Shown here: in pieces, positions 1 through 62,527 of the stretch
Layout of the letters: every line of letters begins with the position of its first letter
Position numbering within the stretch: the first letter of the stretch is position 1
NCBI GenBank assembly: GCA_964344965.1
Contig: CAYFPJ010000003.1
Span: 22,280-86,279 of the forward strand
From: an uncultured Gammaproteobacteria bacterium
GTDB taxonomy: Bacteria > Patescibacteriota > Patescibacteriia > Magasanikbacterales > UBA922
Direction of reading: 5' to 3'
DNA: 64,000 nt
Program-made: the position numbers and the translations under genes
The notes under the pieces: generated by a model
Database searches by the model: none
What the model saw: only the letters and a program-made list of their open reading frames with translations
What the model was told of the DNA's origin: nothing

Positions 1-2
1 TC

Positions 3-857
3 CAGACAGACGTGGCTGTCAACCTGGTCATCAATGGTAGTAAAGGTGACTTCTCCATTCAGCCTGGAGAAGTTATGAATACTAGTGTGATAGTCAAAAA
101 TTCTGGCAGTGAATCTCTCACAAATGCCAAACTTAGACTAATGTTTGATGCTCCATCTTACAATAATATCAATATGATGCGCTGGGCTGCTGTGGAAGAT
201 AGTTTTGATGGTAGCATAGTGGGAGAACAGCTTAGTCCTCAGCGTCGTCGAGGTGTGATCACTTGGAATTCATCTCATATTCCAGATTTGGCTCAAGTAG
301 ACCCTGATGAGGAGATCATTGTTGATGTTCATCTACCAATCAAAAATGGACAAGAAGTAGACCTGACTCAATATAGTGTTCATGACGTCGTTGTCGCTGC
401 TGATTTGCAATATGGAGATGATGAAAAAGAGACTGTCAGTTCCAATCCAATTAAACTTATCATCAATTCAGATACTGATTTTGAAGTACGTGATGATGTC
501 AGTAATAATTTTGCTGGCCAGACAGTACATACCATGACTTGGCTAGTGACCAATTCTTTCCATGAGTTAGAAGGTATTGAAGTAGCTACAGATTTGTATG
601 GTGATATTTTCTTTGATCCCGAGGAGGCTGTAGTCCCGGCCGGTAAGTTGGAATATTCTGAAGAGGATCAGCGATTGATCTGGAAGATAGATAAGATGCC
701 GACAAGTGTTGATGTCCTTGCGTTACAATTGCCAGTAGTCATCCAAGAAGACAATCCTTCTCAAACTCAGCTCACTTCCGTTATTTCATTCAAGGCACTT
801 GATACTATTACTGGTGAAGAGATTATTTTGGTGGGGGATAAGGTGTTGCTTGAATAA
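3..857 (+). CDS. hypothetical protein, 5'-truncated; the ORF is open to the window start, so this is the C-terminal part of a larger protein
   Basis: The reading frame has no stop back to position 3. A hairpin plus T-run terminator follows the stop. No recognisable motif. Confidence 0.5.
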   Translation, partial: QTDVAVNLVINGSKGDFSIQPGEVMNTSVIVKNSGSESLTNAKLRLMFDAPSYNNINMMRWAAVEDSFDGSIVGEQLSPQRRRGVITWNSSHIPDLAQVDPDEEIIVDVHLPIKNGQEVDLTQYSVHDVVVAADLQYGDDEKETVSSNPIKLIINSDTDFEVRDDVSNNFAGQTVHTMTWLVTNSFHELEGIEVATDLYGDIFFDPEEAVVPAGKLEYSEEDQRLIWKIDKMPTSVDVLALQLPVVIQEDNPSQTQLTSVISFKALDTITGEEIILVGDKVLLE

Positions 858-6759: not shown

Positions 6760-6779
6760 TTGGTTTTATGCGAGTACGA

Positions 6780-6899
6780 CGCAACCCACCCTCTGTCTCC
6801 CTCCCTTAAAAAGGGAGGGAGGACGAGATAAGTAGTCTGTACTATTTAGTACGTTCCTCCTCCCTTCAAAAAGGGAGGAGGACAGGAGGTGGGTTGCGT
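6780..6899. repeat. composite palindromic element, family B copy 1 (outer stem cgcaacccacc/ggtgggttgcg enclosing two CCTCCC...GGGAGG hairpins)
   Basis: Seen directly. Its reverse complement is near-identical to 36580-36696. Confidence 0.7.
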
Positions 6900-6920
6900 T
6901 GTTTCCACTACTAAAGTTTT

Positions 6921-9457: not shown

Positions 9458-9532
9458 AAAAAACACCACCCTTCCTCCTAATTTGCATTCAAATATCTTT
9501 GGATGCAAATCTGTGAGTGGGTGGTGTTTTTC
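9458..9532. terminator. long nested hairpin (acaccaccc...gggtggtgt with an inner ttgcat...atgcaa) followed by a T-run; terminator for the methyltransferase gene
   Basis: Inverted repeats seen directly. Confidence 0.45.
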
Positions 9533-9580
9533 CCCTCTTCCCACCACCCGAGTCTGGCTCGGGGGTGGTTGGGGGGGGTT

Positions 9581-11483: not shown

Positions 11484-11501
11484 TTTTGTATTTATTTTTT
11501 T

Positions 11502-11646
11502 AATCTTTAAGCGGTTTTATTCCTCGATGCTTGCATCGAAAAAGTGAAAACTAACATTGGTTGAAATAAGATTTTCTGCCAATACCCCGCAGCTTGCTGC
11601 GGGGATGGCCCGATGAAGTCTTACTTAAACCAAATTTACTTTTATT
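11502..11646. repeat. 145-bp dispersed repeat, family A copy 2
   Basis: Near-identical to 38941-39085. It overlaps the last 20 codons of the 473-aa ORF. Confidence 0.85.
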
Positions 11647-12978: not shown

Positions 12979-14325
12979 TTATTGTGTCCACTCTTTCTTC
13001 ATTTCTAAAAATTTATTTTCTCGAATTTTTTCTCGGACCCTTTTCATCAAGTTTAACATAAAATGTAGATTGTGTATTGTGGCTAGTCTATAGGCGAGCA
13101 TTTCTCCTGCTTTGAACAGGTGATGGAGGTATTGACGAGAATGGTTTTGGCAAGTGAAGCAGGTGCAAGTTGGGTCGATTGGGTTGGGATCATTGCGGTG
13201 TTTTGTGTTGCGGATGTTGAGGGTATATTTTTTTTCTTTCAACGAAGAACCCCCCTTTATCCCCCCTACAAGGGGGGAAATATAGAGAGTACCATTTCTG
13301 GCGATGCGGGTGGGGGAGACGCAGTCGAACATGTCGACGCCGCGTTCGACAACTTCGAAGAGGTCTAGCGGAGAGTGTCCTACTCCCATAGTGTAGTGAG
13401 GTTTTTCTTTGGGAATTATAGGATTGACCCAGTCAAGGATTTGTTTGGTTGCCTCCATATTGTAACCAACACTTTCTCCACCAATGGCAATGCCATCAAA
13501 ATCAAGTGATGAAATGAATTTTGCGCTTTCTTCACGGAGATGTTTGTGATTGGCGCCTTGGATTATGCCAAAGAGAAATTTTTTATGAGTTGCAGACCCA
13601 AGAGACCCCTCCCGCACTCGCTTCGCTCGTGTCGACCTCCCCTCAGAGGGGAGGTTAACTCGCTGTAGTTTGGTATGTTCGATAAGACAGCGGCGAGCCC
13701 AGTCGTGAGTTCTTTCCATTGCTTTTTTTGTATATTTTTCATTAGCATCATCTGGGGTACATTCGTCAAAAGCCATGATGATGTCTGCTCCAATCTTGTG
13801 CTGTATATTTATTGCTTCTTCTGGAGTGAAGCGGTGTGTCGATCCGTCTATGTGGGAACGGAATGTGACACCGTCGTTGTCTATTTTGACTAGTTTTGTT
13901 TGATTGTTGGTTTGTGTTGGTGGGGTGTTACTCGATTCCAGCGAAGACCCCTCCCGCACTCGTTTCGCTCGTGTCGACCTCCCCTTATAGGGGGGGTTAT
14001 TTACTTGCTTTCTTACTTTTTCCTTACCAAGAGAGAACACCTGAAAGCCTCCTGAATCTGTTAGGACCGGCCGATCCCAGTTCATGAATTTATGGATTCC
14101 TCCAGAATCGGCAATTAGATTTTCTCCGGGTCGAAGATGAAGATGGTAAGTGTTGGCAAGAATGATTTGAGCGTCAATATTTTTCAAATCTTCGTTATCA
14201 AGAGATTTGACGGTGGCTTGGGTTCCGACTGGCATGAAGATCGGTGTTTCAACATCACCATGATCAGTATGGAGTATTCCTGTTCTTGCTAGACAGTTTT
14301 TTTCTTGATGTGTTATTTCAAACAT
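12979..14325 (-). CDS. tgt: queuine tRNA-ribosyltransferase, with three in-frame repeat-derived insertions (448 aa against ~370-385 typical)
   Basis: Tgt blocks FMPVGTQATVK, LTDSGGFQVFSL, IMAFDEC, GIAIGG, MFDCV and zinc site CxC..C are all present. Confidence 0.85.
   Translation of the reverse strand: MFEITHQEKNCLARTGILHTDHGDVETPIFMPVGTQATVKSLDNEDLKNIDAQIILANTYHLHLRPGENLIADSGGIHKFMNWDRPVLTDSGGFQVFSLGKEKVRKQVNNPPYKGRSTRAKRVREGSSLESSNTPPTQTNNQTKLVKIDNDGVTFRSHIDGSTHRFTPEEAINIQHKIGADIIMAFDECTPDDANEKYTKKAMERTHDWARRCLIEHTKLQRVNLPSEGRSTRAKRVREGSLGSATHKKFLFGIIQGANHKHLREESAKFISSLDFDGIAIGGESVGYNMEATKQILDWVNPIIPKEKPHYTMGVGHSPLDLFEVVERGVDMFDCVSPTRIARNGTLYISPLVGGIKGGSSLKEKKYTLNIRNTKHRNDPNPIDPTCTCFTCQNHSRQYLHHLFKAGEMLAYRLATIHNLHFMLNLMKRVREKIRENKFLEMKKEWTQ
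13246..13282. repeat. GC hairpin micro-repeat (CCCCCC-tacaa-GGGGGG) inserted in frame in tgt (encodes PLVGGIKGGSS)
   Basis: Same hairpin type as 49689-49709 and 37897-37917. Absent from the Tgt alignment recalled from memory. Confidence 0.6.
13604..13660. repeat. GC-rich palindromic element (agacccctcccgcactcg..gtcgacctcccct-cag-aggggagg) in frame in tgt (encodes SEGRSTRAKRVREGS)
   Basis: ~93% identical to 13944-14000. Related to the intergenic copies at 37979-38010 and 49789-49820. Confidence 0.7.
13944..14000. repeat. GC-rich palindromic element, second in-frame copy in tgt (encodes KGRSTRAKRVREGS)
   Basis: Direct sequence comparison with 13604-13660. Confidence 0.7.
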
Positions 14326-19639: not shown

Positions 19640-20250
19640 CAATTTAAAATTTAAAGACCCCCCCGTGGGATTAAATCCCCAGCTTTTAGGCTGATCTTTC
19701 AAGTCCAGGCATCCTGTGATAGTATGTCCGTATATGAAATACGAAAGAAAATCCTCCCATACCATATACGATCATAAGTACCACATATGCTGGATTACCA
19801 AGTATCGCTACCAGGTACTAAAAGGTCAGGTTGCCATTAGATTACGTGAATTAATCAAACAAGTTTGTAAGCAACAAAGCGTTGAGATTATCGAGGGTCA
19901 CGTCCGCCCAGAACACGTCCACCTATTCGTCTCAGTACCTCCACACATCTCCATCAGCAAGCTGATGCAACTAGTCAAAGGACGAACAGGCAGAAAGATG
20001 CTCCAGGAATTTGAAGAGCTTCGCAAGCGATACTATGGCGGACACCTTTGGACAAGAGGATTCTACTCTGCCACTTCAGGTAATGTAACCGACGAAACCA
20101 TCCAACAATACGTACATAGCCAAGACAAGAAAGAAATGAAAGATGACGAAACATTCCAAGTAACAGAGTAATCGTACTTTAGTGTCATTCATGACAAATT
20201 CCCACAGATTCTTTCGGCTTTAGCCGATAGTGGTTCAAATTAAAATTAAA
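19640..20250 (+). mobile_element. IS200/IS605-family insertion sequence (tnpA only); boundaries approximate
   Basis: Y1/HUH transposase gene, with subterminal hairpin-capable sequences on both sides. Confidence 0.6.
19716..20171 (+). CDS. tnpA: IS200-type transposase TnpA (Y1 HUH); the likely true start is 19734 (MKYERK)
   Basis: HICWITKYRY, HVHLFVSVPP (HUH) and the catalytic YY...G region. ~140 aa. Confidence 0.85.
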   Translation: MIVCPYMKYERKSSHTIYDHKYHICWITKYRYQVLKGQVAIRLRELIKQVCKQQSVEIIEGHVRPEHVHLFVSVPPHISISKLMQLVKGRTGRKMLQEFEELRKRYYGGHLWTRGFYSATSGNVTDETIQQYVHSQDKKEMKDDETFQVTE

Positions 20251-20266: not shown

Positions 20267-21175
20267 ATGCTGTGGTTCTTCATAGCCCTATTAGGATATT
20301 TTTTTCTCGCTCTGACATTTATCCTCGACAAGCTAATCCTCACCAAGTCACTTGGTAAGCCGGTGGTCTATACTTTTTATTCCACCATTTTCATGTTTGG
20401 TGCTCTTTTAGCTCTACCTTTTGGAGTAGAATTTCTCAGTGGGATGGACTGGTGGTGGGCGATTGTTTCTGGGGTTGGGTTTGGTCTTGGTCTTTGGACT
20501 TTATTCAAGGCCGTGAAAATTGGGGAGGCCTCACATATCAATCCTTTTAATGGTGCTGTAGTGACAATTGTCACCTATCTTTTTTCCTCTCATTTTGTGG
20601 GAGAATCTCTCAGCAGCTTACAAATTTCTGGAATTGTTATTTTGATTTTTGCTTCACTCTTGCTGTCATTTGAAAAATCCAAAAAGCATAGTGGATTTCA
20701 TATTGGTTTTGTTTGGGCTATTATTTCGGGAATATTTTTTGCCATGTCCCACGTTAGTGCTAAGTATCTCTATGAACTATATCCATTCCTCACTGGTTTT
20801 GTATGGACGCGTGCTACTACTGGTCTAGTAGGACTTTTTGTTTTATTTTTTCCTTCGGTCCGGGCCACTTTGAAAAAGAAAGAACAAACCAAGAGATCAG
20901 AAAAAAAGAGAAAGAAAACTATCACTCTTGTTGTCAGCACAAAATTATTGGCAGTATTAGCAGTGATCTTGATTCAGTTTGCTGCTGCCATCGGTTCAGT
21001 TTCTCTTGTTATTGCTCTTAGCGGACTGCAGTACGCTCTCATGTTTGTCATGATTTACTTACTTACCAAGTTTGCTCCCAAAGTTTTCAAAGAATACTTT
21101 ACTAAACGTGAATTGACAGTGCAGTGGGTGGCAATTTTTCTTGTAGTTGTTGGTTCGGCGATGTTTGTATTGTAG
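20267..21175 (+). CDS. polytopic membrane protein (DMT/EamA-like, 10 TM) (putative)
   Basis: Hydrophobicity pattern only. Confidence 0.35.
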   Translation: MLWFFIALLGYFFLALTFILDKLILTKSLGKPVVYTFYSTIFMFGALLALPFGVEFLSGMDWWWAIVSGVGFGLGLWTLFKAVKIGEASHINPFNGAVVTIVTYLFSSHFVGESLSSLQISGIVILIFASLLLSFEKSKKHSGFHIGFVWAIISGIFFAMSHVSAKYLYELYPFLTGFVWTRATTGLVGLFVLFFPSVRATLKKKEQTKRSEKKRKKTITLVVSTKLLAVLAVILIQFAAAIGSVSLVIALSGLQYALMFVMIYLLTKFAPKVFKEYFTKRELTVQWVAIFLVVVGSAMFVL

Positions 21176-21203
21176 GAATTATGAATCAGGAATTATGAAT
21201 TAT
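21176..21203. repeat. left inverted repeat (ggaattatgaatcaggaattatgaatta) of the pair bracketing the four-helix-bundle gene
   Basis: It is the reverse complement of 21574-21601. A third related copy lies at 35112-35139. Confidence 0.6.
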
Positions 21204-21578
21204 TATGGAGGAAAAATTAAAAGTTTTACAGACCTACATGCTTGGAAGGAGGGTCATAGACTTGTTCTTATGATTTATGAAAGTGTTAAGTTTTTTCCAA
21301 AAGAAGAATTGTTTGGTCTCGTTAGTCAAATGAAAAGAAGTTCAGTTTCTGTGACATCAAATATTTCTGAGGGATTTAGTAGAAGTTCTTATAAAGATAA
21401 ATTAAGGTTTTACTTTATGTCACTTTCTTCGATTAGTGAACTGCAAAATCAAATTTTGATAGCTCGAGATGTGGGATATATCACTACAAAAAAATTTCAA
21501 GAATTAGCAACACAAAGTATAAAAGTACACAAAATAACTAATGGCTTGATAAAGAAAACAAAAACATATATATCATAA
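21195..21578 (+). CDS. four-helix-bundle protein (TIGR02436-like, the 23S rRNA intervening-sequence protein family)
   Basis: FTDLHAWKEGHRLVLMIYE...SQMKRSSVSVTSNISEGFSR is the family signature. AGGA RBS upstream of the ATG at 21195. Confidence 0.65.
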   Translation: MNYYGGKIKSFTDLHAWKEGHRLVLMIYESVKFFPKEELFGLVSQMKRSSVSVTSNISEGFSRSSYKDKLRFYFMSLSSISELQNQILIARDVGYITTKKFQELATQSIKVHKITNGLIKKTKTYIS

Positions 21579-21601
21579 TTCCTTATTCCTGATTCATAAT
21601 T
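21574..21601. repeat. right inverted repeat (ataattccttattcctgattcataattc)
   Basis: Seen directly. Confidence 0.6.
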
Positions 21602-21606
21602 CTTTT

Positions 21607-26529: not shown

Positions 26530-29500
26530 ATGAAAAAAAGATACTTTGAGAGGGTGAAAAAAGCGATTAGCAGCTTTCTGGTATTTTCGATGTTGCTTCT
26601 TACTGCTGGTCCAGCAGTAGTAAGTGCGGCCACTAGTTTGGTGACCTATACTTTGCCAGATGTGACAATCGATCTCAGTGAAGGTGATAGCGATGTCACT
26701 ATACCTCTGACTGTCGAAGGATTTGAAGATATTTTGGGCGGACAATTATCTATAAATTACGACAGCACAGTTTTGGATTTTTCAGAAAATACTGATGAAG
26801 CAGTGCTAGGCCTAACTATCACAGATGGTGATGGTGTCTTGACTTTGGTCTGGGGTGATTTGGTGAATTTGGAAACTTCCACTATCGTTGATGGTGGTGT
26901 ACTTACCAATCTCGTCTTTGATATTCTTGGTGAAGATGGTGATAGTACTGAATTGGGAATAGTAGATCCACTTGCTTCTGTCGCAACACAACCTTTTCCA
27001 GATGCTCCAGAAATAATTTTACCAAGTGCTATTGCTACTGCTTCTGTAGACGGATCAGTTGTTTTGGAAGATAGTACTCTTGGTGCAGATGATATAGAGC
27101 AAGTTTCTTTGACATTTACCAACTTGAATGACAACGACGAAATTGAGCTCGGCGACACTCTTCAGTTTACAATGCAGTTTATGGTAGAGGATGGGCAAGG
27201 AGGATTTGTATACATCCCTGCTGAATTGCCTTTTCCAGATGGGATCGGTCTTAAGCTAACAAATTTCACTGAAGGTGTGACCAAGGTGTTGGATATGTCT
27301 TCCTCTCTTACTTTGGATTCTGACGTGTTTTCATATCTACTTGGATTAGATGATGATGGCTCTGACCTTACAATTGGTGAATATCGTGTTAGTCTCACTG
27401 GTACCCAGTCTGGTAATTTTCTTGCAGGTACGTTTAATTTGATCATCGATGAACCCCCTTATCCAGTAAGTAGTTTTCCAGAAGATGGTTCAATTGATGT
27501 CTTGATTGATAGCGAGCTGTATATTGATTTTTCTGAAGCAGTTGACACTTCTACTGTAGATTCAGACTCAGTTCAATTGCGACCGTTCTCAGATACCAAT
27601 GGTGATGATAAGGTTTCTGTAAGTTTTGAGTTTGAAGAAGGTGATACTAGAGTTGTTTTGGGATTAGGCGAAGTTTTGGATTATGATACCCAATACTACT
27701 TTTTTGTCGGTAGTACTGTAGAAGATCTCAAAGGTAATAGTGTGGGGACAGAAAATGCTTGGTATGGGTCTGATAAAGAAGATCATGAGTTCACTACCAT
27801 AAGTGAGCCAGATGTGATTGCTCCTGTAGGCACTGTTAGTTATTCTACAGAAGACGCCACCAATGATGATGTGGTGGCTACACTTAGCCTAGATGACCCA
27901 GAAGCAATAGTGACCAATAACAATGGATTATTCACATACACATTCACAGAAAACGGCTCCTTCACATTTGAGTTTGAAGACTTGGCTGGAAACAGTGCCA
28001 CTGCTGTTGCTGAAGTCAATAATATTGATAAAGTTGCTCCAGTTATTACTTTGAACGGGGAATCTGAGATCACTCTTGTTTTGGGGGCTACATATGTAGA
28101 GGAGGGGGCCACAGCTGCGGATGATGTCTTTTTGGGAGAGATGGAGATAGACATTGGTGGTGATGTGGTTGATACAGACATAATTGGAACTTATATTGTT
28201 ACATACAATACTTCTGATAATGCAGGAAATAATGCTGAAGAAGTGACTAGAACAGTTAATGTGGTAGAAGCGTTTCCAATCGGAGACCTTGAGCTTCTTT
28301 CTCCTGATCAAGTTTATCCTGGAGAAGATGTGATTGTGCAGACAGCCTATGATTTTTCAGGACAGGGTAATTATACCGTTTTCGATGACGGATCGTTCAT
28401 TGTGAAGGTGTTTGGTCAGGATGAATTTGGGGAGTATACCGAAGAGATATCAGCTGTTGTGTCTAACTATAGTAATCCCATAAATTTTGATTTTATAGGA
28501 AAACAATTTGTCGTTTCTGAAGATCTCTTTGATCCTGGAATGTACAAAGTATCTCTTATCAAAATCGATGGTCAAGTAGAAAACGACGCTGTATATTTTG
28601 AAGTTTTAGAACCACTCCCAATTGGTGAACTAGAGCTCTTGTCTTCTGCAGAGGTATTTTATGGTGAAGATATCGAACTTCTTACTTCTTATGATTTCAC
28701 AGAACAAGGAAATTATTCACCTGCTCATGACGGATCTTTCACTATTGAGGTATTCGGTCAAGATGAATTTGATGAGTACACAGAAGAGGTATTGATTGAT
28801 ATTTTTGTAAATGGTGGTCCAGGAGAAAGAGCGTTTACTGTTACTGAAGACCTCTTCGACCCTGGCATGTACAAAGTTTCTTTGGTTCAGAATGTTACTA
28901 ACATAGAAAACGACTCTGTATATTTTGAAGTTTTGGAGCCACTGCCTATCGGTGATTTGGAAATGCTATCTCCTGCCGAGTTGGAATATGGTGAAGACGT
29001 CGAACTTCTTACTTCTTATGACTTTGCTCAGCAAGGAAATTATTCACCTTCCCACGATGGCTCGTTTACCCTCAAGGTATTCGGTCAAGATGGTACTGGT
29101 GAATACACAGAAGAAGTGTCGGTTGATATATTCATAAATGGTGGTGCGGGAGAAAAAGGATTTACAGTAACAGAAGATCTATTTGATCCTGGTATGTACA
29201 AAGTTTCTCTTATTCAAATCAGTGGTCAGGTAGAAAATGATGCTGTGTATTTTGAAGTTGTTGACGACATTGCTCCTATTGGAACTATTACTTACTCTAC
29301 TACTGAGCTTACCAATCAAGATGTGGTAGCAACTCTTAGTGCAAATGAAGATATTATTATCACAAACAATGAGGGTTCGGATACATACACATTCACAGAA
29401 AATGATAATTTTGTATTCAAATTTGAAGATCTAGCTGGAAACACTGCTACGGCAATTGCTGAGGTGAATAATATTGATAAAGTTGCCCCAGTAATTGTAT

Positions 29501-31179
29501 TTAGTGATGGTACTGGAAATGATGTTACTCTTGAAGCTGGAGTAGATAGTTTTGATCCAGAAACTCAGACAGATGCCACTGACGACGCTTCTGACGTAAG
29601 TGTGTCTGTCTCTGGTTCTGTAGACACAAATGTCCTCGGTGACTATGAGATAACATATACTGCAGAAGACGGAGCTGGAAATACAGCAACTCTTGTCCAG
29701 ACTGTTCATGTGGTTGATACTATAGATCCTGTTGTCACATTGAATGGAGATTCAGAAGTTACCATTACAACTGGTGATGACTATGAAGAATTGGGTGCTA
29801 CAGCGATAGATAGCTTTGAGGGCGATCTCGATGTGACAATTACTTTGCCAGACGATTTTGATACTGACACTGCAGGGGTTTATGAAATAACTTATAGTGC
29901 AGAAGATTCTACTGGTAATAGAACTCAGGTAGTCAGAACTGTAACTGTAGAAGATCCTGACACAGAGGCTCCTGTTATTACACTGAACGGTGAATCTTCT
30001 ATTACTCTGACTGTGGGAGATACTTATACAGAAGAAGGTGCCACAGCCGCTGATAACCGTGACACTGTAGAAGTGATAATTGGTGGTGATACTGTCGATA
30101 CTTCCACTGTCGGTGTCTACATTGTGACTTACAATGCAACTGACGAATCTGGTAATGTAGCTGACGAAGTTACCAGGACAGTAACTGTAGAAGCCGCTCC
30201 AACTCCAGTTTCATCTGGCGGTGGGGGAGGTGGAGGTGGTCCTATTACCAAAGCTTATAAGCCGGCTGATTTAGGGATTGATTTTCTAGAAGATACTCTT
30301 GATTTGGAAGCTGATAATGTAGAGTTACAACTCTCAGCAGACAGCAAAGCTAGCCAAATGGCTATCAGTGAAAATGAAAATTTCAGTGGTGTAATCTGGC
30401 AAGATTTCTCAGAGTCATTGACTTGGGATTTGGAAGACGGAGTGAGTGGTGATGTGACAGTATATGCCAAGTTCAGAACTGGTAAAGGGGAAGTAAGCAG
30501 TGTTGTTTCAGATACTATTACAATCAATCCATTCGTACCACAAGTTTTGGGTGAGAAGATTACTGATTGTCCTCTAGACATTGGTAGTGCTTACAAGCAT
30601 CCTGGACATAGTGGTGTCTGGTTTATTACCACCGATGAATTTGATGCAGAGAATACCAGCTGTGCTCGCCGAGCTTTCAAGAATGCAGATATTTATGATT
30701 CATATGGCTTGGTGCGTTGGAGTGATGTCAATGTGGTCTCTCAATCAGAATTGGAAGAAGTCGTAGAGCACACCATTCCATTCATCGAATGGGGGACTGA
30801 ACGTACTTATCTTCACGGAGATTTGGTGAAGACTCCAAGTGATAGTAAGGTCTATATGCTTCTAGATGGTAAGAAGCATCCAATATCCTCTGGAGAAGTG
30901 TTCAAGGATCTTGGTCTAGAGTGGAGCTCTATCGTCGATGTATCCAGTGATGTTCTTGTGAGTTATCCTACAGGATCAGAGATCGATGGTATTGGTTCTC
31001 TGCCAGAAGGAACACTTTTCATGTACGAAGGTGCTCCAGAAGTATATAAGCTAGAAGATGGTAAGCAAAGAAAGATAAAGGATACTACAGCATTCAAAGC
31101 AAATGGATTTAGCTGGGCTGGTGTAGTAGTTCTCCCTGCTGATCATACACCATTTACAACTGGTGAAGAGATTCAGTAA
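26530..31179 (+). CDS. very large secreted surface protein (1549 aa) with DUF5011/Ig-like domains and three internal ~110-aa tandem repeats
   Basis: Signal peptide. Repeated TLNGxSxxTxxxGxxYxExGATAxD blocks (DUF5011-like). Poly-Gly linker. Confidence 0.65.
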   Translation: MKKRYFERVKKAISSFLVFSMLLLTAGPAVVSAATSLVTYTLPDVTIDLSEGDSDVTIPLTVEGFEDILGGQLSINYDSTVLDFSENTDEAVLGLTITDGDGVLTLVWGDLVNLETSTIVDGGVLTNLVFDILGEDGDSTELGIVDPLASVATQPFPDAPEIILPSAIATASVDGSVVLEDSTLGADDIEQVSLTFTNLNDNDEIELGDTLQFTMQFMVEDGQGGFVYIPAELPFPDGIGLKLTNFTEGVTKVLDMSSSLTLDSDVFSYLLGLDDDGSDLTIGEYRVSLTGTQSGNFLAGTFNLIIDEPPYPVSSFPEDGSIDVLIDSELYIDFSEAVDTSTVDSDSVQLRPFSDTNGDDKVSVSFEFEEGDTRVVLGLGEVLDYDTQYYFFVGSTVEDLKGNSVGTENAWYGSDKEDHEFTTISEPDVIAPVGTVSYSTEDATNDDVVATLSLDDPEAIVTNNNGLFTYTFTENGSFTFEFEDLAGNSATAVAEVNNIDKVAPVITLNGESEITLVLGATYVEEGATAADDVFLGEMEIDIGGDVVDTDIIGTYIVTYNTSDNAGNNAEEVTRTVNVVEAFPIGDLELLSPDQVYPGEDVIVQTAYDFSGQGNYTVFDDGSFIVKVFGQDEFGEYTEEISAVVSNYSNPINFDFIGKQFVVSEDLFDPGMYKVSLIKIDGQVENDAVYFEVLEPLPIGELELLSSAEVFYGEDIELLTSYDFTEQGNYSPAHDGSFTIEVFGQDEFDEYTEEVLIDIFVNGGPGERAFTVTEDLFDPGMYKVSLVQNVTNIENDSVYFEVLEPLPIGDLEMLSPAELEYGEDVELLTSYDFAQQGNYSPSHDGSFTLKVFGQDGTGEYTEEVSVDIFINGGAGEKGFTVTEDLFDPGMYKVSLIQISGQVENDAVYFEVVDDIAPIGTITYSTTELTNQDVVATLSANEDIIITNNEGSDTYTFTENDNFVFKFEDLAGNTATAIAEVNNIDKVAPVIVFSDGTGNDVTLEAGVDSFDPETQTDATDDASDVSVSVSGSVDTNVLGDYEITYTAEDGAGNTATLVQTVHVVDTIDPVVTLNGDSEVTITTGDDYEELGATAIDSFEGDLDVTITLPDDFDTDTAGVYEITYSAEDSTGNRTQVVRTVTVEDPDTEAPVITLNGESSITLTVGDTYTEEGATAADNRDTVEVIIGGDTVDTSTVGVYIVTYNATDESGNVADEVTRTVTVEAAPTPVSSGGGGGGGGPITKAYKPADLGIDFLEDTLDLEADNVELQLSADSKASQMAISENENFSGVIWQDFSESLTWDLEDGVSGDVTVYAKFRTGKGEVSSVVSDTITINPFVPQVLGEKITDCPLDIGSAYKHPGHSGVWFITTDEFDAENTSCARRAFKNADIYDSYGLVRWSDVNVVSQSELEEVVEHTIPFIEWGTERTYLHGDLVKTPSDSKVYMLLDGKKHPISSGEVFKDLGLEWSSIVDVSSDVLVSYPTGSEIDGIGSLPEGTLFMYEGAPEVYKLEDGKQRKIKDTTAFKANGFSWAGVVVLPADHTPFTTGEEIQ
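28270..29262 (+). repeat. three tandem ~325-bp intragenic repeats (units beginning PIGxLExLSx...)
   Basis: Units 28270-28610, 28611-28939 and 28940-29262 are ~75-85% identical at the protein level. Confidence 0.7.
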
Positions 31180-35107: not shown

Positions 35108-35165
35108 TAATCATAATTCTTTATTCCTGATTCATTATTCTACATTCCAAATTCTACATTCAAAA

Positions 35166-36541: not shown

Positions 36542-36572
36542 AAAAACTCCTGCTGATTGTGGGAGTTTTTTT
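36542..36572 (+). terminator. terminator ACTCC-tgctgattgtg-GGAGT plus T-run; a near-identical copy lies at 37856-37887
   Basis: Seen directly. Confidence 0.55.
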
Positions 36573-36579
36573 ACTACCA

Positions 36580-36696
36580 CGCAACCCACCTCCTGTCCTC
36601 CTCCCTTAAAAAAGGAGGAGGAACTTGCTGAATAGTAAATACTTATTAGAACGTCCTCCCTCCCTAATAAGGGAGGGAGACAGAGGGTGGGTTGCG
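36580..36696. repeat. composite palindromic element, family B copy 2 (inverted orientation relative to copy 1)
   Basis: cgcaacccacc...ggtgggttgcg outer stem with CCTCCTCCC/GGAGGAGG and CCTCCCTCCC/GGGAGGGAG inner hairpins. Confidence 0.7.
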
Positions 36697-36800
36697 TGAT
36701 AGCATCAAAATCCCTTGCAACACCCTCTTCTCCATGTGGACAACTTTCTTGACAGTACTATCCTATAGGTCTAAACTAAAAATAGATTATATTAATCAAT

Positions 36801-36974
36801 ATGTTTAATTTCACACATATCACAAACCTCTTTATTAACTCCCTTATTAAGGACTGTGGTTTTGTTTTGCCAGTAGGTGTGGTGAATACAGCCAATACAG
36901 TGGTATATCTGGGAGGAGAGGGGTGTGGATGTGGACAAAATTGTAATTGCGAGGGGGGCTGCAATTGCGGTTAA
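36801..36974 (+). CDS. small Cys/Gly-rich protein, 57 aa (MFNFTHITNLFINSLIKDCGFVLPVGVVNTANTVVYLGGEGCGCGQNCNCEGGCNCG); the ORF track omitted it because it is under 60 aa
   Basis: Hand translation. A terminator hairpin follows immediately (36991-37022). The C-terminal 20 residues contain 7 Cys in CxC/GC motifs. Confidence 0.35.
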   Translation: MFNFTHITNLFINSLIKDCGFVLPVGVVNTANTVVYLGGEGCGCGQNCNCEGGCNCG

Positions 36975-37544
36975 CTAGGTTCAAATAGCATTACACATCC
37001 CGGTAAAATGGGATGTTTTTTATTAGAGATTAAGTACATTTGTAGATAATAGCAGGAACCCTCTCCCCTCGGCCTGAGCTCGGGACGAAGGCCAACTCCC
37101 CCTACTAGGGGGAGGGAAATATCGGATGATCGAGGTTTGCAAGGCTGATTAAGCTATGTAGACCTTGGTTACTTCGGTAGCCTAACCTATTGACAAATGA
37201 CCTGGATACTGGTAAGTATTCAGCAAGGTTGTGGGATTTTTAAGGAATGTTGGTCTGATATTCCTTTGAAATTTCTATAACCTTTGAATCATTTGTCATT
37301 TCCCCTCGTTCTTTCCAAGGAGAAATAAGCAGCATATGAATGCACATGTTCCCCACAAACGGTGGATTAGGCGTTGATGATTTCAAGCCGGGCGGAGGTC
37401 TTTGGTAGATTATTATAATAATCTCTAAAGATCACCGTCTGGCCGAGAAATTTTTCAAAGCCGGGCACCTTGGGGCCTCGCCCCGAAACCTAAGGGGTCA
37501 TCTCGGCCCCGCATTCGGGGCATTCGCTCCAAGGAGAGAGGTCC

Positions 37545-37829
37545 ATGACCTCCGACTTCAGCACCACCACCGCCACCACCGCCACCACCGCCACGGATCC
37601 AGTGGATCCGAGAGAGACCGCCGACCCTGACACCGTCAGGGGATGGAGATCCTGGTCCGCCTCAACCGAGGAGGGAGCCGGCGTCGCCGGCAGCGGTCTT
37701 GGCCCAGCTAGGGTCGTGGTAGGGGTGGGGGAGCGTGTGAGTTCCCCGAGATGTAGGTCGTTCGCGACCTGTCTATCTCGGGCGTCATTTCGTATGCTGC
37801 CCCACCTCTCTTGTTCATTTAAGTTTTAA
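37545..37829 (+). CDS. small ORF in a ~400-bp GC-rich patch (94 aa, starts MTSDFSTTTATTATTATDPVDP); doubtful
   Basis: Strong SD AAGGAGAG 6 nt before the ATG. Contains an (ACCACCGCC)x3 microsatellite. GC content is far above background. Confidence 0.2.
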   Translation: MTSDFSTTTATTATTATDPVDPRETADPDTVRGWRSWSASTEEGAGVAGSGLGPARVVVGVGERVSSPRCRSFATCLSRASFRMLPHLSCSFKF

Positions 37830-38077
37830 GTGGGTAGAAGAGGCGGATGATTTTGAAAGACTCCTACTGATTGTGGGAGTTTTTTGTATGAAAAAATTCT
37901 CCCCCTCTTAGGGGGAGTTAGAGGAGGTTCGTTGTAATGAGATTATCTGTCATTATGTCAGTCTTATAAAATTGGTATGCACCCCTCCCAGCCTCCCCTA
38001 AAAGGGGAGGAGATATTTTGTCTTGTTAAAAAACACAATTTGAAAACACCCCTCATCTCTGATAAAGTATTCACTAT

Positions 38078-38941
38078 ATGAATCATGACCTCTTCAAACC
38101 AACTCATCTCAAAGAACTCTGTCAAAAATACGATCTCACGCCATCGAAAAAATATGGACAAAACTACTTGATCTCTGACGCTCCGATCAAAAAAATGATT
38201 GAGGCAGCTGACGTAAAAAAGACCGATATTATAGTAGAGATCGGTCCAGGTTTTGGAGTGCTTACTTTTGCTCTAGCAGAAGGAGCGGGTAAAGTTTTCA
38301 CATTTGAGATAGAAAGGAAACTAGAAGAGTATTGGGATGATGTTTTGGGAGATGGAGACAAGGAGATAAGTAGAGATAATAATATAGAGATAATTTGGGG
38401 CAATGCTTTGAAAAGTCTTAAATCTTATGTCTTAAATCTTAAGTCTGGATACAAAGTGATTGCAAACTTGCCATACCAGATTACTTCCAATGCTTTGAGG
38501 ATAATTTTGGAGGCAGAAAATAAGCCAGAATCTGTGACTGTGATGGTCCAGAAGGAGGTGGCAGAAAGAATTGTGGCGAAGCCAGGGGATATGAGCCTAC
38601 TTGCTGTTTCAGTGCAATATTATGGTGGACCAAAGATTGTTTGTAAGGTTCCGAGTGGATCATTTTGGCCTAGTCCGAAAGTGGATTCAGCGGTATTGTA
38701 TATAGACACCTCAACACCTAAACACTTTAACACTTTTTCTGATGATGATTTTTTTAAAGTTGTGCGGGCGGGATTTGCAAATAAGCGCAAACAACTGTGG
38801 CGAAATATTAGTGATGGATTGAAGATTGATAGGGGAGAGGTGAAAGAAGTCTTGAAGAATGTCGTTGGTAATGAAAAAGCACGAGCGCAGGAATTGAGTG
38901 TAGAGGAATGGAGAGAGGTGGTATCGACACTAAATAGTTAA
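38078..38941 (+). CDS. rsmA: 16S rRNA (adenine1518/1519-N6)-dimethyltransferase
   Basis: YGQNYLISDAPIKKMIEAA, SAM-binding VEIGPGFGVLT, and NLPYQITS. Confidence 0.85.
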   Translation: MNHDLFKPTHLKELCQKYDLTPSKKYGQNYLISDAPIKKMIEAADVKKTDIIVEIGPGFGVLTFALAEGAGKVFTFEIERKLEEYWDDVLGDGDKEISRDNNIEIIWGNALKSLKSYVLNLKSGYKVIANLPYQITSNALRIILEAENKPESVTVMVQKEVAERIVAKPGDMSLLAVSVQYYGGPKIVCKVPSGSFWPSPKVDSAVLYIDTSTPKHFNTFSDDDFFKVVRAGFANKRKQLWRNISDGLKIDRGEVKEVLKNVVGNEKARAQELSVEEWREVVSTLNS

Positions 38942-39085
38942 ATCTTTAAGCGGTTTTATTCCTCGATGCTTGCATCGAAAAAGTGAAAACTAACATTGGT
39001 TGAAATAAGATTTTCTGCCAATACCCCGCAGCTTGCTGCGGGGATGGCCCGATGAAGTCTTACTTAAACCAAATTTACTTTTATT
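38941..39085. repeat. 145-bp dispersed repeat, family A copy 3 (abuts the rsmA stop codon)
   Basis: Near-identical to 11502-11646. Confidence 0.85.
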
Positions 39086-39092
39086 GTACGAA

Positions 39093-57578: not shown

Positions 57579-57704
57579 ACGAGTAGTGTGAATTAAAATT
57601 GATATTTTCCTTATTTTAGCAAAATATGAATTTTCCGCATATCTATTTTCTAAAAATATTTAGCTAAATTAAGCCAAACGAGTCTAATTCACACTACTCG
57701 TTAA
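57579..57704. mobile_element. 126-bp element with 17-bp terminal inverted repeats (ACGAGTAGTGTGAATTA ... TAATTCACACTACTCGT), copy 1
   Basis: 100% identical to 62363-62488 in direct orientation. Perfect TIRs and no coding capacity. Confidence 0.65.
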
Positions 57705-57721
57705 TTAGTGATTAGAAAAAT

Positions 57722-57757
57722 AAAAACATCCTAATAGATATTGGGATGTTTTTTTAG
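57722..57757 (+). terminator. terminator ACATCC-taatagatatt-GGGATGT plus T-run
   Basis: Seen directly. Confidence 0.5.
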
Positions 57758-57769
57758 AACTTACATCAT

Positions 57770-57876
57770 TCAGTCGGAAATATATATCTTTGACTTGGCG
57801 CCAACTCAGGATCGCAAGCAGCGGCGCTCAAGTCAAAGATATATATTTTTTCCTAAAGCTCAAACGTATAAGTCCT
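57770..57876. repeat. 107-bp hairpin element D, copy A (left flank of the GC island)
   Basis: ~75-80% identical to 58769-58876. The internal hairpin is kept by compensatory changes (gacttg/caagtc against gtcttg/caagac). Confidence 0.65.
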
Positions 57877-57986
57877 ATTTTTTTTGAGAAAGGAATCTTT
57901 CCAGAATTGGAAGAGCGGACCTGTGGGAGGGTCCGCTCGTTGTTCGCCGCCGCCCGCCTCCGGAGAGGCAGGCGACGACAGGCAAT

Positions 57987-58715: not shown

Positions 58716-58768
58716 TTATTCTAGTGAATTTTTGTATCCACAAAGAAAAATCTTAGGACTTACGCCTT

Positions 58769-58876
58769 TCAGTCGGAGATATATCCCTTTGTCTTGGCGC
58801 TAACTGAAAGTCGCAAGCACTAGCGCTCAAGACAAAGGGATGTATTTCCTCCTTATAGCTCAAAGGCGTAAGTCCT
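58769..58876. repeat. 107-bp hairpin element D, copy B (right flank of the GC island)
   Basis: Direct comparison with copy A. Confidence 0.65.
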
Positions 58877-59297
58877 GAATCTTTAGAAGATGTCTGTACG
58901 TATCAAAGATTCATTTTTGTAGATACAAATCTACCAATGATATTAGTTACTTTCATTGATTTAACAAAAGTATTTTTTCGCTGTGAAATTCTCCGCCAAC
59001 TGGCGGATCAGACAATCTTCGCTTCAAAAATACTTTTGTTAAATCAATTGGGGAAAATAATTGCCTTGAATTACGAAAACCTGCCTTGAGAGCGAATAAA
59101 TAAAAGTTATATTCCTCCCCCGCCTTCGGCGGGGGAGGAATATTTCTCTTTTTTCTTCGCAGCAAGTTTAGCTTCGTAATCCAAAGTAATTAATATCATT
59201 GGTAAATCCACCAAGAGTTATCAAGGCCCAATTATCCATTATCTAGTATCTCTCAAAAAATATAGTTTTGTCAAGATATGACTAGATAATTGCCCTA

Positions 59298-62362: not shown

Positions 62363-62488
62363 AACGAGTAGTGTGAATTAAAATTGATATTTTCCTTATT
62401 TTAGCAAAATATGAATTTTCCGCATATCTATTTTCTAAAAATATTTAGCTAAATTAAGCCAAACGAGTCTAATTCACACTACTCGTTA
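62363..62488. mobile_element. 126-bp element with terminal inverted repeats, copy 2 (identical to 57579-57704)
   Basis: Identity seen directly. Confidence 0.65.
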
Positions 62489-62527
62489 TTTAACAAAAAG
62501 CTATATCCATCAGAACATTTGGTTAAT

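What the first reader, a model, noticed from the sequence alone, without database searches (positions are those of the whole stretch)
37979..38010. Dispersed families of GC-rich hairpin micro-repeats in an AT-rich genome
Three recurring unit types appear.
- gacccctccc..cctcccct-NNN-aggggagg at 13604-13660, 13944-14000, 37979-38010 and 49789-49820.
- (a)aaatt(t)ctccccct-NNNNN-agggggag at 37897-37917 and 49689-49709, with a related one at 13261-13277 and at 37093-37111.
- Further C-run/G-run hairpins with UUCG-like loops at 59105-59140 and 9541-9575.
Loops differ while stems are conserved. That pattern suggests selection on structure (REP/RPE-like elements, protein-binding sites or transcription punctuation) rather than on sequence.
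Basis: seen in the sequence. Interest (0 to 1): 0.6.

Follow-up and report, generated by a model that had tools for sequence, protein, structure and literature searches.

The report
BoxC-like triplex-motif hairpin repeats
The GC-rich hairpins are real and belong to a known but poorly understood class of bacterial repeats (E. coli BoxC, or "intrastrand triplex motifs"); here they occur in a candidate-phyla-radiation bacterium, and three copies sit in frame inside an intact tRNA-modification gene.

Summary
The hairpins exist and are far above chance: 10 perfect C-arm/G-arm hairpins against 0.02 in shuffles. Every hairpin is followed, after a 3-nt linker or a small extra hairpin, by a G-rich box that is the mirror image of the G-arm. 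That makes a pyrimidine arm, a purine arm and a mirrored purine strand, which is a class II intrastrand DNA triplex motif. The window holds 12 such units (11 by an automatic scan, 0 in 100 shuffles). They occur as singles, as inverted pairs (6775-6902, 36576-36701, 37899-38010, 49681-49820), and as three in-frame copies inside tgt.

This is the architecture of E. coli BoxC / PIT / TM_ECO repeats (Holder et al. 2015). No function or transposase is known for them. The same unit occurs in at least ten phyla.

Three things go beyond the E. coli description:
- The host is a Magasanikbacteria (CPR) genome.
- Some units carry a hairpin inside loop 2.
- Copies sit in frame within protein loops, with presence/absence among 120 Tgt orthologues and also in other genes.

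The two "UUCG" hairpins are ordinary terminator-like hairpins. Verdict: a real feature of a known kind, in a modestly new variant.

The parts
6775..6902 (.). X1: a palindromic pair of triplex-motif units. The left unit is 6783-6821 on the minus strand; the right unit is 6858-6894 on the plus strand (CCTCCTCCC N8 GGGAGGAGG ACA GGAGGTGGG). The G-boxes form part of the outer stem ACGCAACCCACC...GGTGGGTTGCGT. It lies 16 nt after the DUF559 gene (6385-6759) and before queA (6921-7988).
   Evidence: (RNA fold -83.9 kcal/mol, z -10.95).
12979..14325 (-). Host gene tgt (queuine tRNA-ribosyltransferase, 448 aa, intact ORF). It carries three in-frame units in three loops.
   Evidence: (PF01702, E 2e-146).
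13248..13279 (-). Unit in tgt loop 3: TCCCCCCT TGT AGGGGGGA TA AAGGGGGG TTC. It encodes ISPLVGGIKGGSS.
13604..13654 (-). Unit in tgt loop 2, with a 23-nt mid-hairpin in loop 2: CCTCCCC TCTGA GGGGAGG [TCGACACGAGCGAAGCGAGTGCG] GGAGGGG TC. It encodes NLPSEGRSTRAKRVREGS.
   Evidence: (D15).
13947..13996 (-). Unit in tgt loop 1. It is 93% identical over 55 nt to the loop-2 copy, with one mismatch in the C-arm. It encodes NNPPYKGRSTRAKRVREGS.
   Evidence: (D15).
36576..36701 (.). X2: an inverted copy of X1. The right unit is 36655-36694 on the plus strand. The left unit is at about 36580-36622 on the minus strand and has a 9-nt loop 1. X2 follows the ndk terminator.
   Evidence: the left unit was read by eye.
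37059..37114 (-). Single intergenic unit with a 25-nt hairpin in loop 2: CTCCCCC TAGTA GGGGGAG [..GGCCT..AGGCC..] GAGGGGA, with 1 mismatch.
37899..37928 (+). Y1 left unit: CTCCCCCT CTT AGGGGGAG TTA GAGGAGG TTC, with 1 mismatch in the third strand.
37981..38010 (-). Y1 right unit, which is the locus named in the finding. On the plus strand it reads CCCCTCC CAG CCTCCCCT AAA AGGGGAGG, with a perfect 7-nt mirror.
49681..49729 (+). Y2 left unit, with the hairpin ACCTGCC GAA GGCAGGT in loop 2, then the box GAGAGGG TC. It starts 28 nt after the stop of the 3174-aa ORF.
49791..49820 (-). Y2 right unit. On the plus strand it reads CCCCTCC CAA CCTCCCCT GAT AGGGGAGG, with a perfect mirror. A terminator-like hairpin follows at about 49848-49872.
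9531..9578 (+). Not a member. A long C-rich/G-rich hairpin followed by TTTTATTTTTTT, about 100 nt after the methyltransferase gene. It looks like an intrinsic terminator.
   Evidence: -35.8 kcal/mol, z -3.2.
59109..59141 (.). Not a member. A perfect 16-bp hairpin with a TTCG loop and T-rich tails on both strands, downstream of the CotH-domain gene 59298-62177 (minus strand). It looks like a bidirectional terminator.
   Evidence: z -7.8 and -6.7.

Best explanation
The hairpins are units of a G/C-rich intrastrand triplex motif repeat family. This is the kind known in E. coli as BoxC, PIT elements or TM_ECO.

Each unit has five parts, in order:
- a homopyrimidine arm
- a 3-8 nt loop
- the complementary homopurine arm
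- a short linker (YYR), or instead a small hairpin
- a purine box that mirrors the purine arm, usually ending in TC

Shown here:
- The sequence anatomy and its excess over chance.
- Covariation between the box and the arm.
- The spread of the unit across phyla.
- In-frame residence in genes, with presence/absence polymorphism among orthologues.

Inferred:
- On single-stranded DNA the unit can fold into a hairpin whose major groove is filled by the third strand, through G.G-C and A.A-T (or T.A-T) reverse-Hoogsteen triplets.
- The complementary strand offers the C+.G-C version.
- The mirror constraint means that the DNA triplex fold, or a factor that reads it, is what is selected.
- The purine-motif triplex is reported not to form in RNA, so the constraint points to DNA.
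- The units behave as selfish, non-autonomous DNA. They spread or homogenise within a genome by an unknown route: a trans-acting enzyme, or repair/recombination at stalled forks.
- They survive inside genes for two reasons. Pure C/T and G/A arms cannot contain stop codons in any frame. They also encode Pro/Leu/Ser ... Gly/Glu/Arg turns, which surface loops tolerate.

They are probably not gene-specific regulators.
For: Anatomy and excess over chance:
- The window holds 11 class II motifs by an ITxF-like definition. Seven have loop 2 of at most 6 nt and four have a hairpin in loop 2. 100 shuffles gave 0.
- A twelfth unit was read by eye.

Mirror covariation:
- I used 143 informative units that were not fixed by my search pattern.
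- The A position in the box tracks the A position in the arm over six classes, with 69 units on the diagonal.
- The mirror score is 7.35 of 8. Permuted pairings give 6.47, with a maximum of 6.66 in 1000 permutations. The direct-repeat score is 6.85.
- Each box matches its own arm better than it pairs with the opposite box.

Shared architecture with E. coli:
- An E. coli locus reads CCCTCACCC CGA CCCTCTCCC ACA GGGAGAGGG ... CCCCTCGCCCC TTT GGGGAGAGGG TTA GGGTGAGGGG.
- The published pattern, the loop-2 types TTA/CCG, the inverted pairs and the trailing GTC all match (PMC4666352).

The extra loop-2 segments are themselves hairpins in every variant, which keeps the third strand next to the duplex.

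No link to particular genes:
- The neighbours of 120 loci hit 216 different Pfam families, with none enriched.
- No Rfam family matches.

Mobility or homogenisation:
- The two tgt copies are 93% identical over 55 nt.
- In L161 the tgt and uvrD copies share the same mid-hairpin core, and tgt sites 2 and 3 share loop and mid-hairpin type. Copies at the same site in other genomes differ.
- 120 Tgt orthologues range from empty loops (381-390 aa) to varied inserts (up to 465 aa).

Tolerance inside proteins:
- The AlphaFold model of Tgt has pTM 0.82. Its lowest-confidence stretches (95-142, 238-243 and 356-363, against inserts at about residues 100-145, 222-243 and 348-366), together with 61-64, coincide with the inserts.
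- In-frame copies occur in MetH, HsdM, PolA, MutS, MutL, CobQ, AcrB, CusB and an ImuB-like gene in other phyla.
Against: - Triplex folding was not measured here.
- In E. coli the triplex formed in vitro, but in vivo DMS footprinting did not detect it (PMC4666352).
- Stems here are only 7-9 triplets. The published scan found that 7-nt motifs are common in scrambled genomes, although my C-rich version gave 0 in shuffles.
- Copies are related by descent, so the permutation p-value is inflated. Independence rests on the six arm classes and on the many phyla.
- No mobilising enzyme, target-site duplication or empty/filled pair between near-identical genomes was found. 'Mobile' is therefore inferred from paralogue similarity and from presence/absence among orthologues.
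- Only 64 kb of this genome was seen.
Confidence: 0.72

Rival explanations
1. REP/REPIN-type elements mobilised in trans by a RAYT (Y1 tyrosine transposase). The hairpin plus the flanking box would be the recognition and cleavage module.
For: - The elements are dispersed, occur as inverted pairs, and sit mostly between genes in the window.
- A Y1_Tnp gene is present at 19716-20171, and a Y1_Tnp fragment in L162.
- From general knowledge: IS200/IS605 enzymes use base interactions between a guide sequence beside the hairpin and the cleavage site.
Against: - The window's Y1 gene is IS200-like and has its own, unrelated end hairpins.
- tblastn with it finds no homologue beside units in the other loci (genome, viral and Magasanikbacteria).
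- There is no GTAG/CGTC tag.
- No transposase family appears among the neighbours.
- TM_ECO was reported as not associated with transposons (PMC4666352).
Confidence: 0.1
2. RNA-level elements: transcription terminators or attenuators, mRNA-stabilising 3' hairpins, or small RNAs.
For: - The intergenic copies lie at gene ends, near terminator-like hairpins (37856-37885, 49848-49872).
- X1 and X2 fold very stably as RNA.
- The pyrimidine-motif triplex can form in RNA (PMC4666352, introduction).
Against: - No T-run follows the units.
- Three copies lie inside an intact essential-type gene, and others lie inside genes in both orientations.
- There is no association with any gene family and no Rfam match.
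- PIT elements showed no promoter or terminator activity in E. coli (PMC4666352).
- On the tgt sense strand the third segment is the purine version, which does not form RNA triplexes.
Confidence: 0.08
3. Classical MITEs, that is, deletion derivatives of an IS with terminal inverted repeats, moved by a DDE transposase.
For: X1 and X2 have 19-nt terminal inverted repeats and are about 125 nt long.
Against: - No target-site duplication flanks X1 or X2 (flanks read).
- Single 30-55-nt units exist on their own.
- No parent IS with matching ends is in the window.
- The conserved feature is a mirror repeat, which no transposase-end model predicts.
Confidence: 0.04
4. A by-product with no element identity: low-complexity C/G runs, or convergent Pro/Gly-rich linker coding, that happen to be self-complementary.
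For: - The arms are low-complexity.
- The inserts encode flexible Pro/Gly loops at permissive sites.
Against: - Shuffles give about 0.
- The polarity is strict, 10 to 0.
- Most copies in the window are non-coding.
- The arms and box are kept as exact C/G runs at synonymous positions between Tgt orthologues that are only 60-63% identical.
- 55-nt copies are 93% identical.
Confidence: 0.03

Closest known systems
E. coli BoxC repeats = PIT (potential intrastrand triplex) elements = TM_ECO (Holder et al. 2015, NAR 43:10126, PMC4666352; earlier work by Bachellier and by Hoyne/Maher is cited there)
   Same: - The order of segments is the same: C-rich arm, 3-6 nt loop, G-rich arm, 3-nt loop (TTA/CCG in E. 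coli; TTG/CTG/CAG/TTA/ACA here), then a mirrored G-rich arm, often ending in GTC/TC.
- It is a class II purine-motif triplex on one strand and a C-C-G motif on the other.
- Units frequently occur as inverted (palindromic) pairs.
- Loops vary while stems are conserved.
- There is no link to any gene class or to transposons.
- G/C-rich motifs are also abundant in cyanobacteria, which match my genome hits.
   Different: - Stems here are 7-9 nt with other T/A positions, so the published TM_ECO regular expression is not matched.
- 4-5 of the 12 units have a 12-29-nt hairpin in loop 2, outside the ITxF loop limit.
- The host is a Patescibacteria (Magasanikbacteria) genome.
- 3 of the 12 units are in frame inside a gene, whereas TM_ECO in K-12 is 'always intergenic'.
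Rickettsia palindromic elements (RPE) (from general knowledge)
   Same: Both are small palindromic repeats that insert in frame into protein-coding genes, add surface peptide segments without destroying the protein, and also occur between genes.
   Different: - RPEs are about 100-150 bp, AT-richer, restricted to Rickettsia, and not homopurine/homopyrimidine mirror repeats.
- No sequence relationship was tested here.
REP / BIME / REPIN elements with RAYT transposases
   Same: Both are short extragenic palindromes. They are often inverted doublets, high in copy number, vary between strains, and have debated functions.
   Different: - REPs carry a GTAG or CGTC tag and are linked to a RAYT gene flanked by REPs. 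Neither was found here.
- REPs have no mirrored third segment.
H-DNA-forming homopurine/homopyrimidine mirror repeats
   Same: Both have mirror symmetry of a purine tract and form Hoogsteen or reverse-Hoogsteen triplets.
   Different: - H-DNA forms within duplex DNA from a mirror repeat alone.
- Here the mirror half lies next to an inverted repeat, so a single strand can fold back twice.
- The tracts are also short (7-9 nt).
Cyanobacterial small dispersed repeats (Elhai et al. 2008; recalled from memory, not read here)
   Same: Both are very small (about 20-30 nt) hairpin-forming units that appear mobile, nest in other sequences and occur in Nostoc, where my scan also found the unit.
   Different: Identity with those families was not checked.

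Membership tests
Intrastrand triplex motif, class II (ITxF definition, PMC4666352) | A pyrimidine-rich arm followed by a complementary purine-rich arm (a Watson-Crick hairpin). | tested here: met
   All 12 units meet this. 10 are perfect hairpins of at least 7 bp.
Intrastrand triplex motif, class II (ITxF definition, PMC4666352) | A third 3' segment, antiparallel to the purine arm, that gives G.G-C, A.A-T or T.A-T triplets (a mirror repeat of the purine arm), with at most 1 mismatch for stems of at least 7 nt. | tested here: met
   11 units were found automatically with at most 1 mismatch, against 0 in 100 shuffles. The mirror covariation holds across arm classes.
Intrastrand triplex motif, class II (ITxF definition, PMC4666352) | Stem of 6-15 nt and both loops of 1-6 nt. 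| tested here: inconclusive
4 units have a loop 2 of 22-25 nt that is itself a hairpin, and 1 unit has a 9-nt loop 1.
TM_ECO / BoxC sensu stricto | Sequence pattern CCCTCNCCC N3-6 GGGNGAGGG N3 GGGNGAGGG[GTC]. | tested here: not met
   The arms here are CCTCCCCT, CTCCCCCT, TCCCCCCT, TCCCTCCCT and CCTCCTCCC. Only the architecture and the trailing TC are shared. The nearest matches are the right unit of X1 and the tgt site-1 unit of L162.
TM_ECO / BoxC sensu stricto | Located between genes ('always intergenic' in E. coli K-12). | tested here: not met
   3 of the 12 window units lie in frame inside tgt. All 8 distinct units found in 48 kb of related Magasanikbacteria DNA are inside genes.
TM_ECO / BoxC sensu stricto | Frequent inverted-repeat pairing of two units of different subtype. 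| tested here: met
   X1, X2, Y1 and Y2 are each pairs of units with different arms. The E. coli example L163 shows the same arrangement.
TM_ECO / BoxC sensu stricto | Forms a stable triplex as isolated single-stranded DNA (by CD or NMR). | not testable with these tools
   This needs oligonucleotide biophysics. ViennaRNA models Watson-Crick and G-U pairs only.
REP / REPIN | A conserved GTAG or CGTC tag at one end of the palindrome. | tested here: not met
   The unit ends read show a C-box/CAA or TTG/G-box instead.
REP / REPIN | A cognate RAYT gene flanked by REP copies. | tested here: not met
   The only Y1 gene (19716-20171) is IS200-like and is flanked by unrelated hairpins. None lies near units elsewhere. 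The whole genome was not available.
Rickettsia palindromic elements | In-frame insertion into ORFs that leaves the host protein intact. | tested here: met
   The tgt ORF is intact. The inserts coincide with the low-pLDDT loops, while the TIM-barrel core is modelled with confidence.
Rickettsia palindromic elements | Homology to the RPE-1..8 consensus sequences, with a length of about 100-150 bp. | not tested
The units here are 30-55 nt and G/C-rich, so homology is unlikely.
MITE | Terminal inverted repeats plus a target-site duplication. | tested here: not met
   X1 and X2 have terminal inverted repeats, but their flanks show no direct duplication. Single units have neither feature.
Intrinsic terminator | A G+C-rich hairpin immediately followed by a T-run. 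| tested here: not met
   The units lack a T-run. By contrast, the hairpins at 9531-9578 and 59109-59141 do have one.

The most novel reading that the evidence does not exclude
This reading has three parts.

1. The box/arm mirror covariation, seen over six arm classes and at least ten phyla, would be natural evidence that the third (Hoogsteen) strand is under selection in vivo. The DNA triplex itself, or a factor that reads it, would then be the functional or recognised form. That is something experiments in E. coli could not show.

2. These units would be a pan-bacterial class of miniature mobile DNA. They routinely colonise protein-coding genes in frame, in the manner of RPEs.

3. They would seed Pro/Gly-rich loops in housekeeping proteins, including many DNA-metabolism enzymes: Tgt, UvrD, MutS, MutL, PolA and HsdM.
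Probability: 0.3. Interest if true: 0.7.

Novelty: new variant of a known kind. Interest (0 to 1): 0.45.

Why it matters
BoxC/PIT triplex motifs have been known for decades without a function, a mobility mechanism, or in vivo evidence for the triplex.

This window adds three things:
- The same architecture exists in an ultra-small CPR genome. Non-coding DNA is scarce there, so persistence demands an explanation.
- Comparative data give covariation that is specific to the third strand. This makes 'is the triplex what is selected?' testable by sequence analysis alone.
- The units live in frame inside conserved enzymes and differ between orthologues. That makes them a source of protein-loop variation. 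They are also a practical trap for annotation, alignment and phylogeny of CPR proteins.

If none of this holds, they remain an ordinary repeat family.

Tried and rejected
- **DUF559 endonuclease as a partner gene.** X1 lies 16 nt after a DUF559 gene. Only 4 of 120 genome loci have a DUF559 homologue, and only 3 of those are adjacent to the unit. Judged not general.
- **IS200-like Y1 transposase and the 23S-IVP/bAvd-like gene as partners.** Neither has a homologue near units elsewhere. The Y1 ends are unrelated.
- **Enrichment of any Pfam family next to units.** The neighbours gave 216 families, with none above 5 of 150.
- **Rfam.** Nothing reached gathering score in the window or in 16 loci. 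X2 hit only generic miRNA-precursor models below threshold.
- **Lineage-specific copies of the 22-nt mid-segment of the tgt units in JGI metagenomes.** 0 hits.
- **Literature searches** for in-frame palindromic elements in Patescibacteria, for the motif string, and for cyanobacterial small dispersed repeats. These found nothing directly relevant. The triplex paper turned up only after I had noticed the mirror symmetry.
- **Direct-repeat reading of the box.** It explains the data less well than the mirror reading.
- **Outer-stem pairing of the two boxes as the main constraint.** Rejected, because each box matches its own arm better than it matches the opposite box.
- **Target-site duplications.** None were seen.
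- **The terminator scanner.** It discriminated too poorly to help (21 found against 13.8 expected).
Full report
**Setting.** The window has 39.6% G+C. It comes from an ENA metagenome assembly (ERZ930061, PRJEB17505). Its Tgt protein is closest (59-68% identity) to proteins that the sources name Candidatus Magasanikbacteria, Parcubacteria or Patescibacteria, so the host is a CPR bacterium. Gene content fits this: giant ORFs, and queA, tgt, ndk, ksgA and clpP.

**Observation.** One coordinate is about 8 nt off: 49681-49699 rather than 49689-49709.
- I counted perfect hairpins whose 5' arm is at least 7 pyrimidines with at least 5 C. There are 10, against a mean of 0.02 in 200 dinucleotide-preserving shuffles. 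There are none of the opposite polarity.
- The composite type 1 pattern occurs 3 times, against 0 in 100 shuffles.
- The two 'UUCG-loop' hairpins (about 9531-9578 and 59109-59141) have mixed-base arms and are followed by T-runs. They look like ordinary intrinsic terminators and are not part of the family.

**Larger anatomy.** The hairpins are parts of composite elements.
- X1 (6775-6902) and X2 (36576-36701) are about 125-nt near-palindromes, inverted relative to each other. Each holds two C/G hairpins inside a long outer stem. X1 folds at -83.9 kcal/mol with z = -10.95.
- Y1 (37899-38010) and Y2 (49681-49820) are two copies of one design: hairpin A, a spacer of 50-60 nt, then hairpin B.
- The copies at 13248-13279, 13604-13654 and 13947-13996 all lie inside the intact 448-aa tgt ORF on the minus strand. 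They add ISPLVGGIKGGSS, NLPSEGRSTRAKRVREGS and NNPPYKGRSTRAKRVREGS. The last two copies are 93% identical over 55 nt.

**The unit.** I compared copies in the window, in four related Magasanikbacteria loci and in other bacteria. This defined a common unit, in order:
- a C-arm, a loop and a G-arm
- a 3-nt linker (YYR), or instead a small hairpin of 12-29 nt
- a G-rich box, usually followed by TC

The box is the mirror image of the adjacent G-arm. Examples:
- AGGGGAGG is followed by GGAGGGG.
- AGGGGGAG is followed by GAGGGGG.
- AGGGGGGA is followed by AGGGGGG.
- AGGAGGGG is followed by GGGGAGG.
- GGGGGAGG is followed by GGAGGGGG.

Statistical support, and why a triplex:
- I tested 143 informative units whose box had not been fixed by my search pattern. 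The A position in the box tracks the A position in the arm across six classes. The mirror score (7.35 of 8) exceeds every one of 1000 permutations (mean 6.47, maximum 6.66) and the direct-repeat score (6.85). Because copies are related, this is not a true probability. The six classes and the many phyla are what provide independence.
- Templated DNA synthesis produces inverted or direct repeats, not mirror repeats.
- Each box matches its own arm better than it pairs with the opposite box.
- The simplest reading is therefore a constraint on Hoogsteen-type pairing. Pyrimidine arm, purine arm and antiparallel purine third strand together make a class II intrastrand triplex.

**Count under a published-style definition.** I wrote an ITxF-like scan with 7-nt stems and at most one mismatch, allowing G.G-C, A.A-T and T.A-T triplets.
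- It finds 7 motifs with loop 2 of at most 6 nt, and 11 when loop 2 may reach 30 nt. 100 shuffles gave 0.
- The left unit of X2 is a twelfth, with a 9-nt first loop (read).
- In the four long-loop units the extra segment is itself a hairpin, for example ACCTGCC GAA GGCAGGT. This keeps the third strand next to the duplex. The same holds for long-loop units in relatives and in alpha-proteobacteria.

**What is known.** The mirror symmetry led me to Holder et al. 2015 (PMC4666352). [quoted passage not shown]
- The E. coli family TM_ECO is the same as BoxC and as Maher's PIT elements. Its pattern is CCCTCNCCC N3-6 GGGNGAGGG N3 GGGNGAGGG[GTC], and the second loop is TTA or CCG.
- E. coli K-12 has 23 copies, all intergenic. 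Five pairs are in inverted configuration.
- The triplex is stable in vitro by CD and NMR. It was not detected by in vivo DMS footprinting.
- There is no promoter or terminator activity, no link to gene classes and no link to transposons. There is an association with local genome variability.
- G/C-rich motifs are very frequent in cyanobacteria.
- The consensus I reconstructed from their control oligonucleotide matches 4605 of 5426 complete E. coli genomes, with a median of 4 places per genome and no annotated feature under the five matches listed.
- One locus shows the same design as X1 and as the Gallionella-type elements: box, arm, arm ... arm, arm, box.

The window's elements are thus members of this general class. 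They are not members of TM_ECO in the strict sense, because the arm sequences and lengths differ.

- The hosts include Gallionellaceae (the most frequent), other Beta-, Gamma- and Alphaproteobacteria, Bacteroidota, many cyanobacteria, Chloroflexota, Nitrospirae, Planctomycetota, Omnitrophota, Armatimonadota, Desulfobacterota and several Patescibacteria.
- It also occurs in 36 viral contigs.
- The ORFs next to the unit hit 216 different Pfam families, with none enriched.
- No Y1 transposase lies nearby, and only 3-4 DUF559 genes do.
- No Rfam family covers the elements.

**Units inside genes.**
- Among 120 Tgt orthologues, three loops vary greatly in length. They lie after QVFSLG, after WAxRCIxxHKK and after PTRxARNGxLF.
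- Many proteins have short 'empty' loops and are 381-390 aa long, for example QVFSLGLQKEAKGQGSLTKIDD.
- Others carry different Pro/Gly-rich inserts, such as SPLLVGEGQGEV, LPSEGRST..REGSSL and PPARGGDARRAEGEG.
- At the DNA level, the inserts I could fetch are triplex-motif units on the tgt sense strand.
- Copies within one genome resemble each other more than they resemble copies at the same site in other genomes:
  - Window sites 1 and 2 are 93% identical.
  - In L161, the tgt site 1 copy and the uvrD copy share the mid-hairpin core CTGATTCGCATCAG.
  - In L161, tgt sites 2 and 3 share loop and mid-hairpin type.
- A UvrD-like helicase carries a unit in the same loop in two genomes. The units are of different subtype and antisense to the gene.
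- All 8 distinct units found in 48 kb of related Magasanikbacteria DNA lie inside genes.
- The AlphaFold model of the window's Tgt has pTM 0.82 and mean pLDDT 80.4. The core is confident. Apart from a short dip at 61-64, its lowest-confidence stretches are 95-142, 238-243 and 356-363, and they coincide with the inserts.
- The behaviour is not limited to CPR. In the genome loci the unit sits in frame inside MetH, HsdM, PolA, MutS, MutL, CobQ, AcrB, CusB and an ImuB-like protein.
- Pure C/T and G/A arms cannot contain a stop codon in any frame on either strand, and they encode Pro/Leu/Ser and Gly/Glu/Arg. I infer that this explains their tolerance in surface loops.
- The arms and box stay exact C/G runs between Tgt orthologues that are only about 60-63% identical. 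This points to DNA-level constraint or ongoing homogenisation, rather than protein-level selection.

**Mechanism.**
- Shown: the anatomy, its excess over chance, the mirror covariation, the wide distribution, the independence from neighbouring genes, in-frame residence, and presence/absence among orthologues.
- Inferred:
  - The unit folds as a triplex on single-stranded DNA.
  - This fold, or a factor that recognises it, is what is conserved.
  - The units spread or homogenise within genomes as selfish DNA.
- The route of spread is unknown. I found no transposase, no target-site duplication, and no filled/empty pair between near-identical genomes.
- The RNA-level, REP/RAYT, MITE and chance explanations each fail at least one direct test. 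See the rival explanations and membership tests.

**Verdict.** The finding is real, but it is an instance of a known, functionally unexplained repeat class. What is new is modest:
- a CPR host
- a variant with a hairpin in loop 2
- clear in-frame colonisation of conserved enzymes
- comparative evidence that the third strand is constrained

Noticed in passing
window 10951-11105, 11497-11649, 38936-39088: A 150-nt repeat in three direct copies, 85-99% identical. It contains two internal hairpins (TCGATGCTTGCATCGA and CCCCGCAGCTTGCTGCGGGG). Two copies lie immediately upstream of the small minus-strand ORFs 10616-10990 and 11202-11483. There is no Rfam match. It could be a leader, a small RNA or a MITE.
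   Followed up: partly
window 57579-58853 and 62364-62492: A GC-rich island (about 57790-58800; the enclosing 58001-60000 bin is 48% GC, against 39.6% overall) with dense mixed-base hairpins and overlapping ORFs on both strands; none of these ORFs was searched against Pfam. It is bracketed by 101-nt direct repeats (57754-57854 and 58753-58853, 78% identical). A separate 129-nt repeat, 99% identical, lies at 57579-57707 and 62364-62492. No Rfam hit.
   Followed up: partly
window 49900-50920: A second GC-rich stretch (49900-50560) with many hairpins; the one ORF there that was tested (49906-50556) has no Pfam hit. A weak tmRNA match lies at 50844-50919 (21 bits, against a gathering score of 47). 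ARAGORN found no tmRNA. This may be a divergent structured RNA.
   Followed up: partly
window 19716-20171: An IS200-like Y1 transposase gene (PF01797, E 2e-41) with its own sub-terminal hairpins, which are unrelated to the triplex-motif units.
   Followed up: yes
window 21147-21578; 21572-21603; 35110-35155: A gene of the 23S-rRNA-intervening-sequence-protein / bAvd-like type. An AT-rich repeat with a period of about 7 nt (ATCATAATTCCTTATTCCTGATTCATAATTCT) follows it and recurs near 35110.
   Followed up: no
window 36801-36974: A 57-aa ORF with a Cys/Gly-rich tail (GGEGCGCGQNCNCEGGCNCG), followed by a terminator-like hairpin. It may encode a small secreted or modified peptide.
   Followed up: no
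window 907-936, 36542-36571, 37856-37885: Three near-identical terminator hairpins, AAAAACTCC...GGGAGTTTTTT, 80-93% identical to one another (family D14).
   Followed up: no
window 28479-29264 (inside ORF 26530-31179): Three tandem repeats of 327 nt, 70-77% identical, inside a 1549-aa ORF (families D1 and D2).
   Followed up: no
Tgt orthologues P0001-P0120, loops 2 and 3: Other in-frame insert families also occupy the same Tgt loops in relatives: HCEERGTSDEAI, HPDRAERVEGSL and (I)RKSGLSGNPD. They look like translations of different hairpin repeats, so these loops are general landing or tolerance sites.
   Followed up: no
loci L008, L070, L072, L074, L082, L091, L108, L113, L120; L161 7717-7770; L162 716-750: The host genes with in-frame units are MetH, HsdM, PolA, MutS, MutL, CobQ, AcrB, CusB, an ImuB-like gene, UvrD and Tgt. 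Six of these eleven act on DNA. Whether this is more than chance was not tested.
   Followed up: partly
window 37460-37830: A strongly GC-rich stretch (judged by eye from the sequence; not measured) upstream of Y1. It contains a 94-aa ORF (37545-37829) with a Thr/Ala-rich N-terminus and no Pfam hit. It may be foreign DNA or a structured RNA.
   Followed up: no
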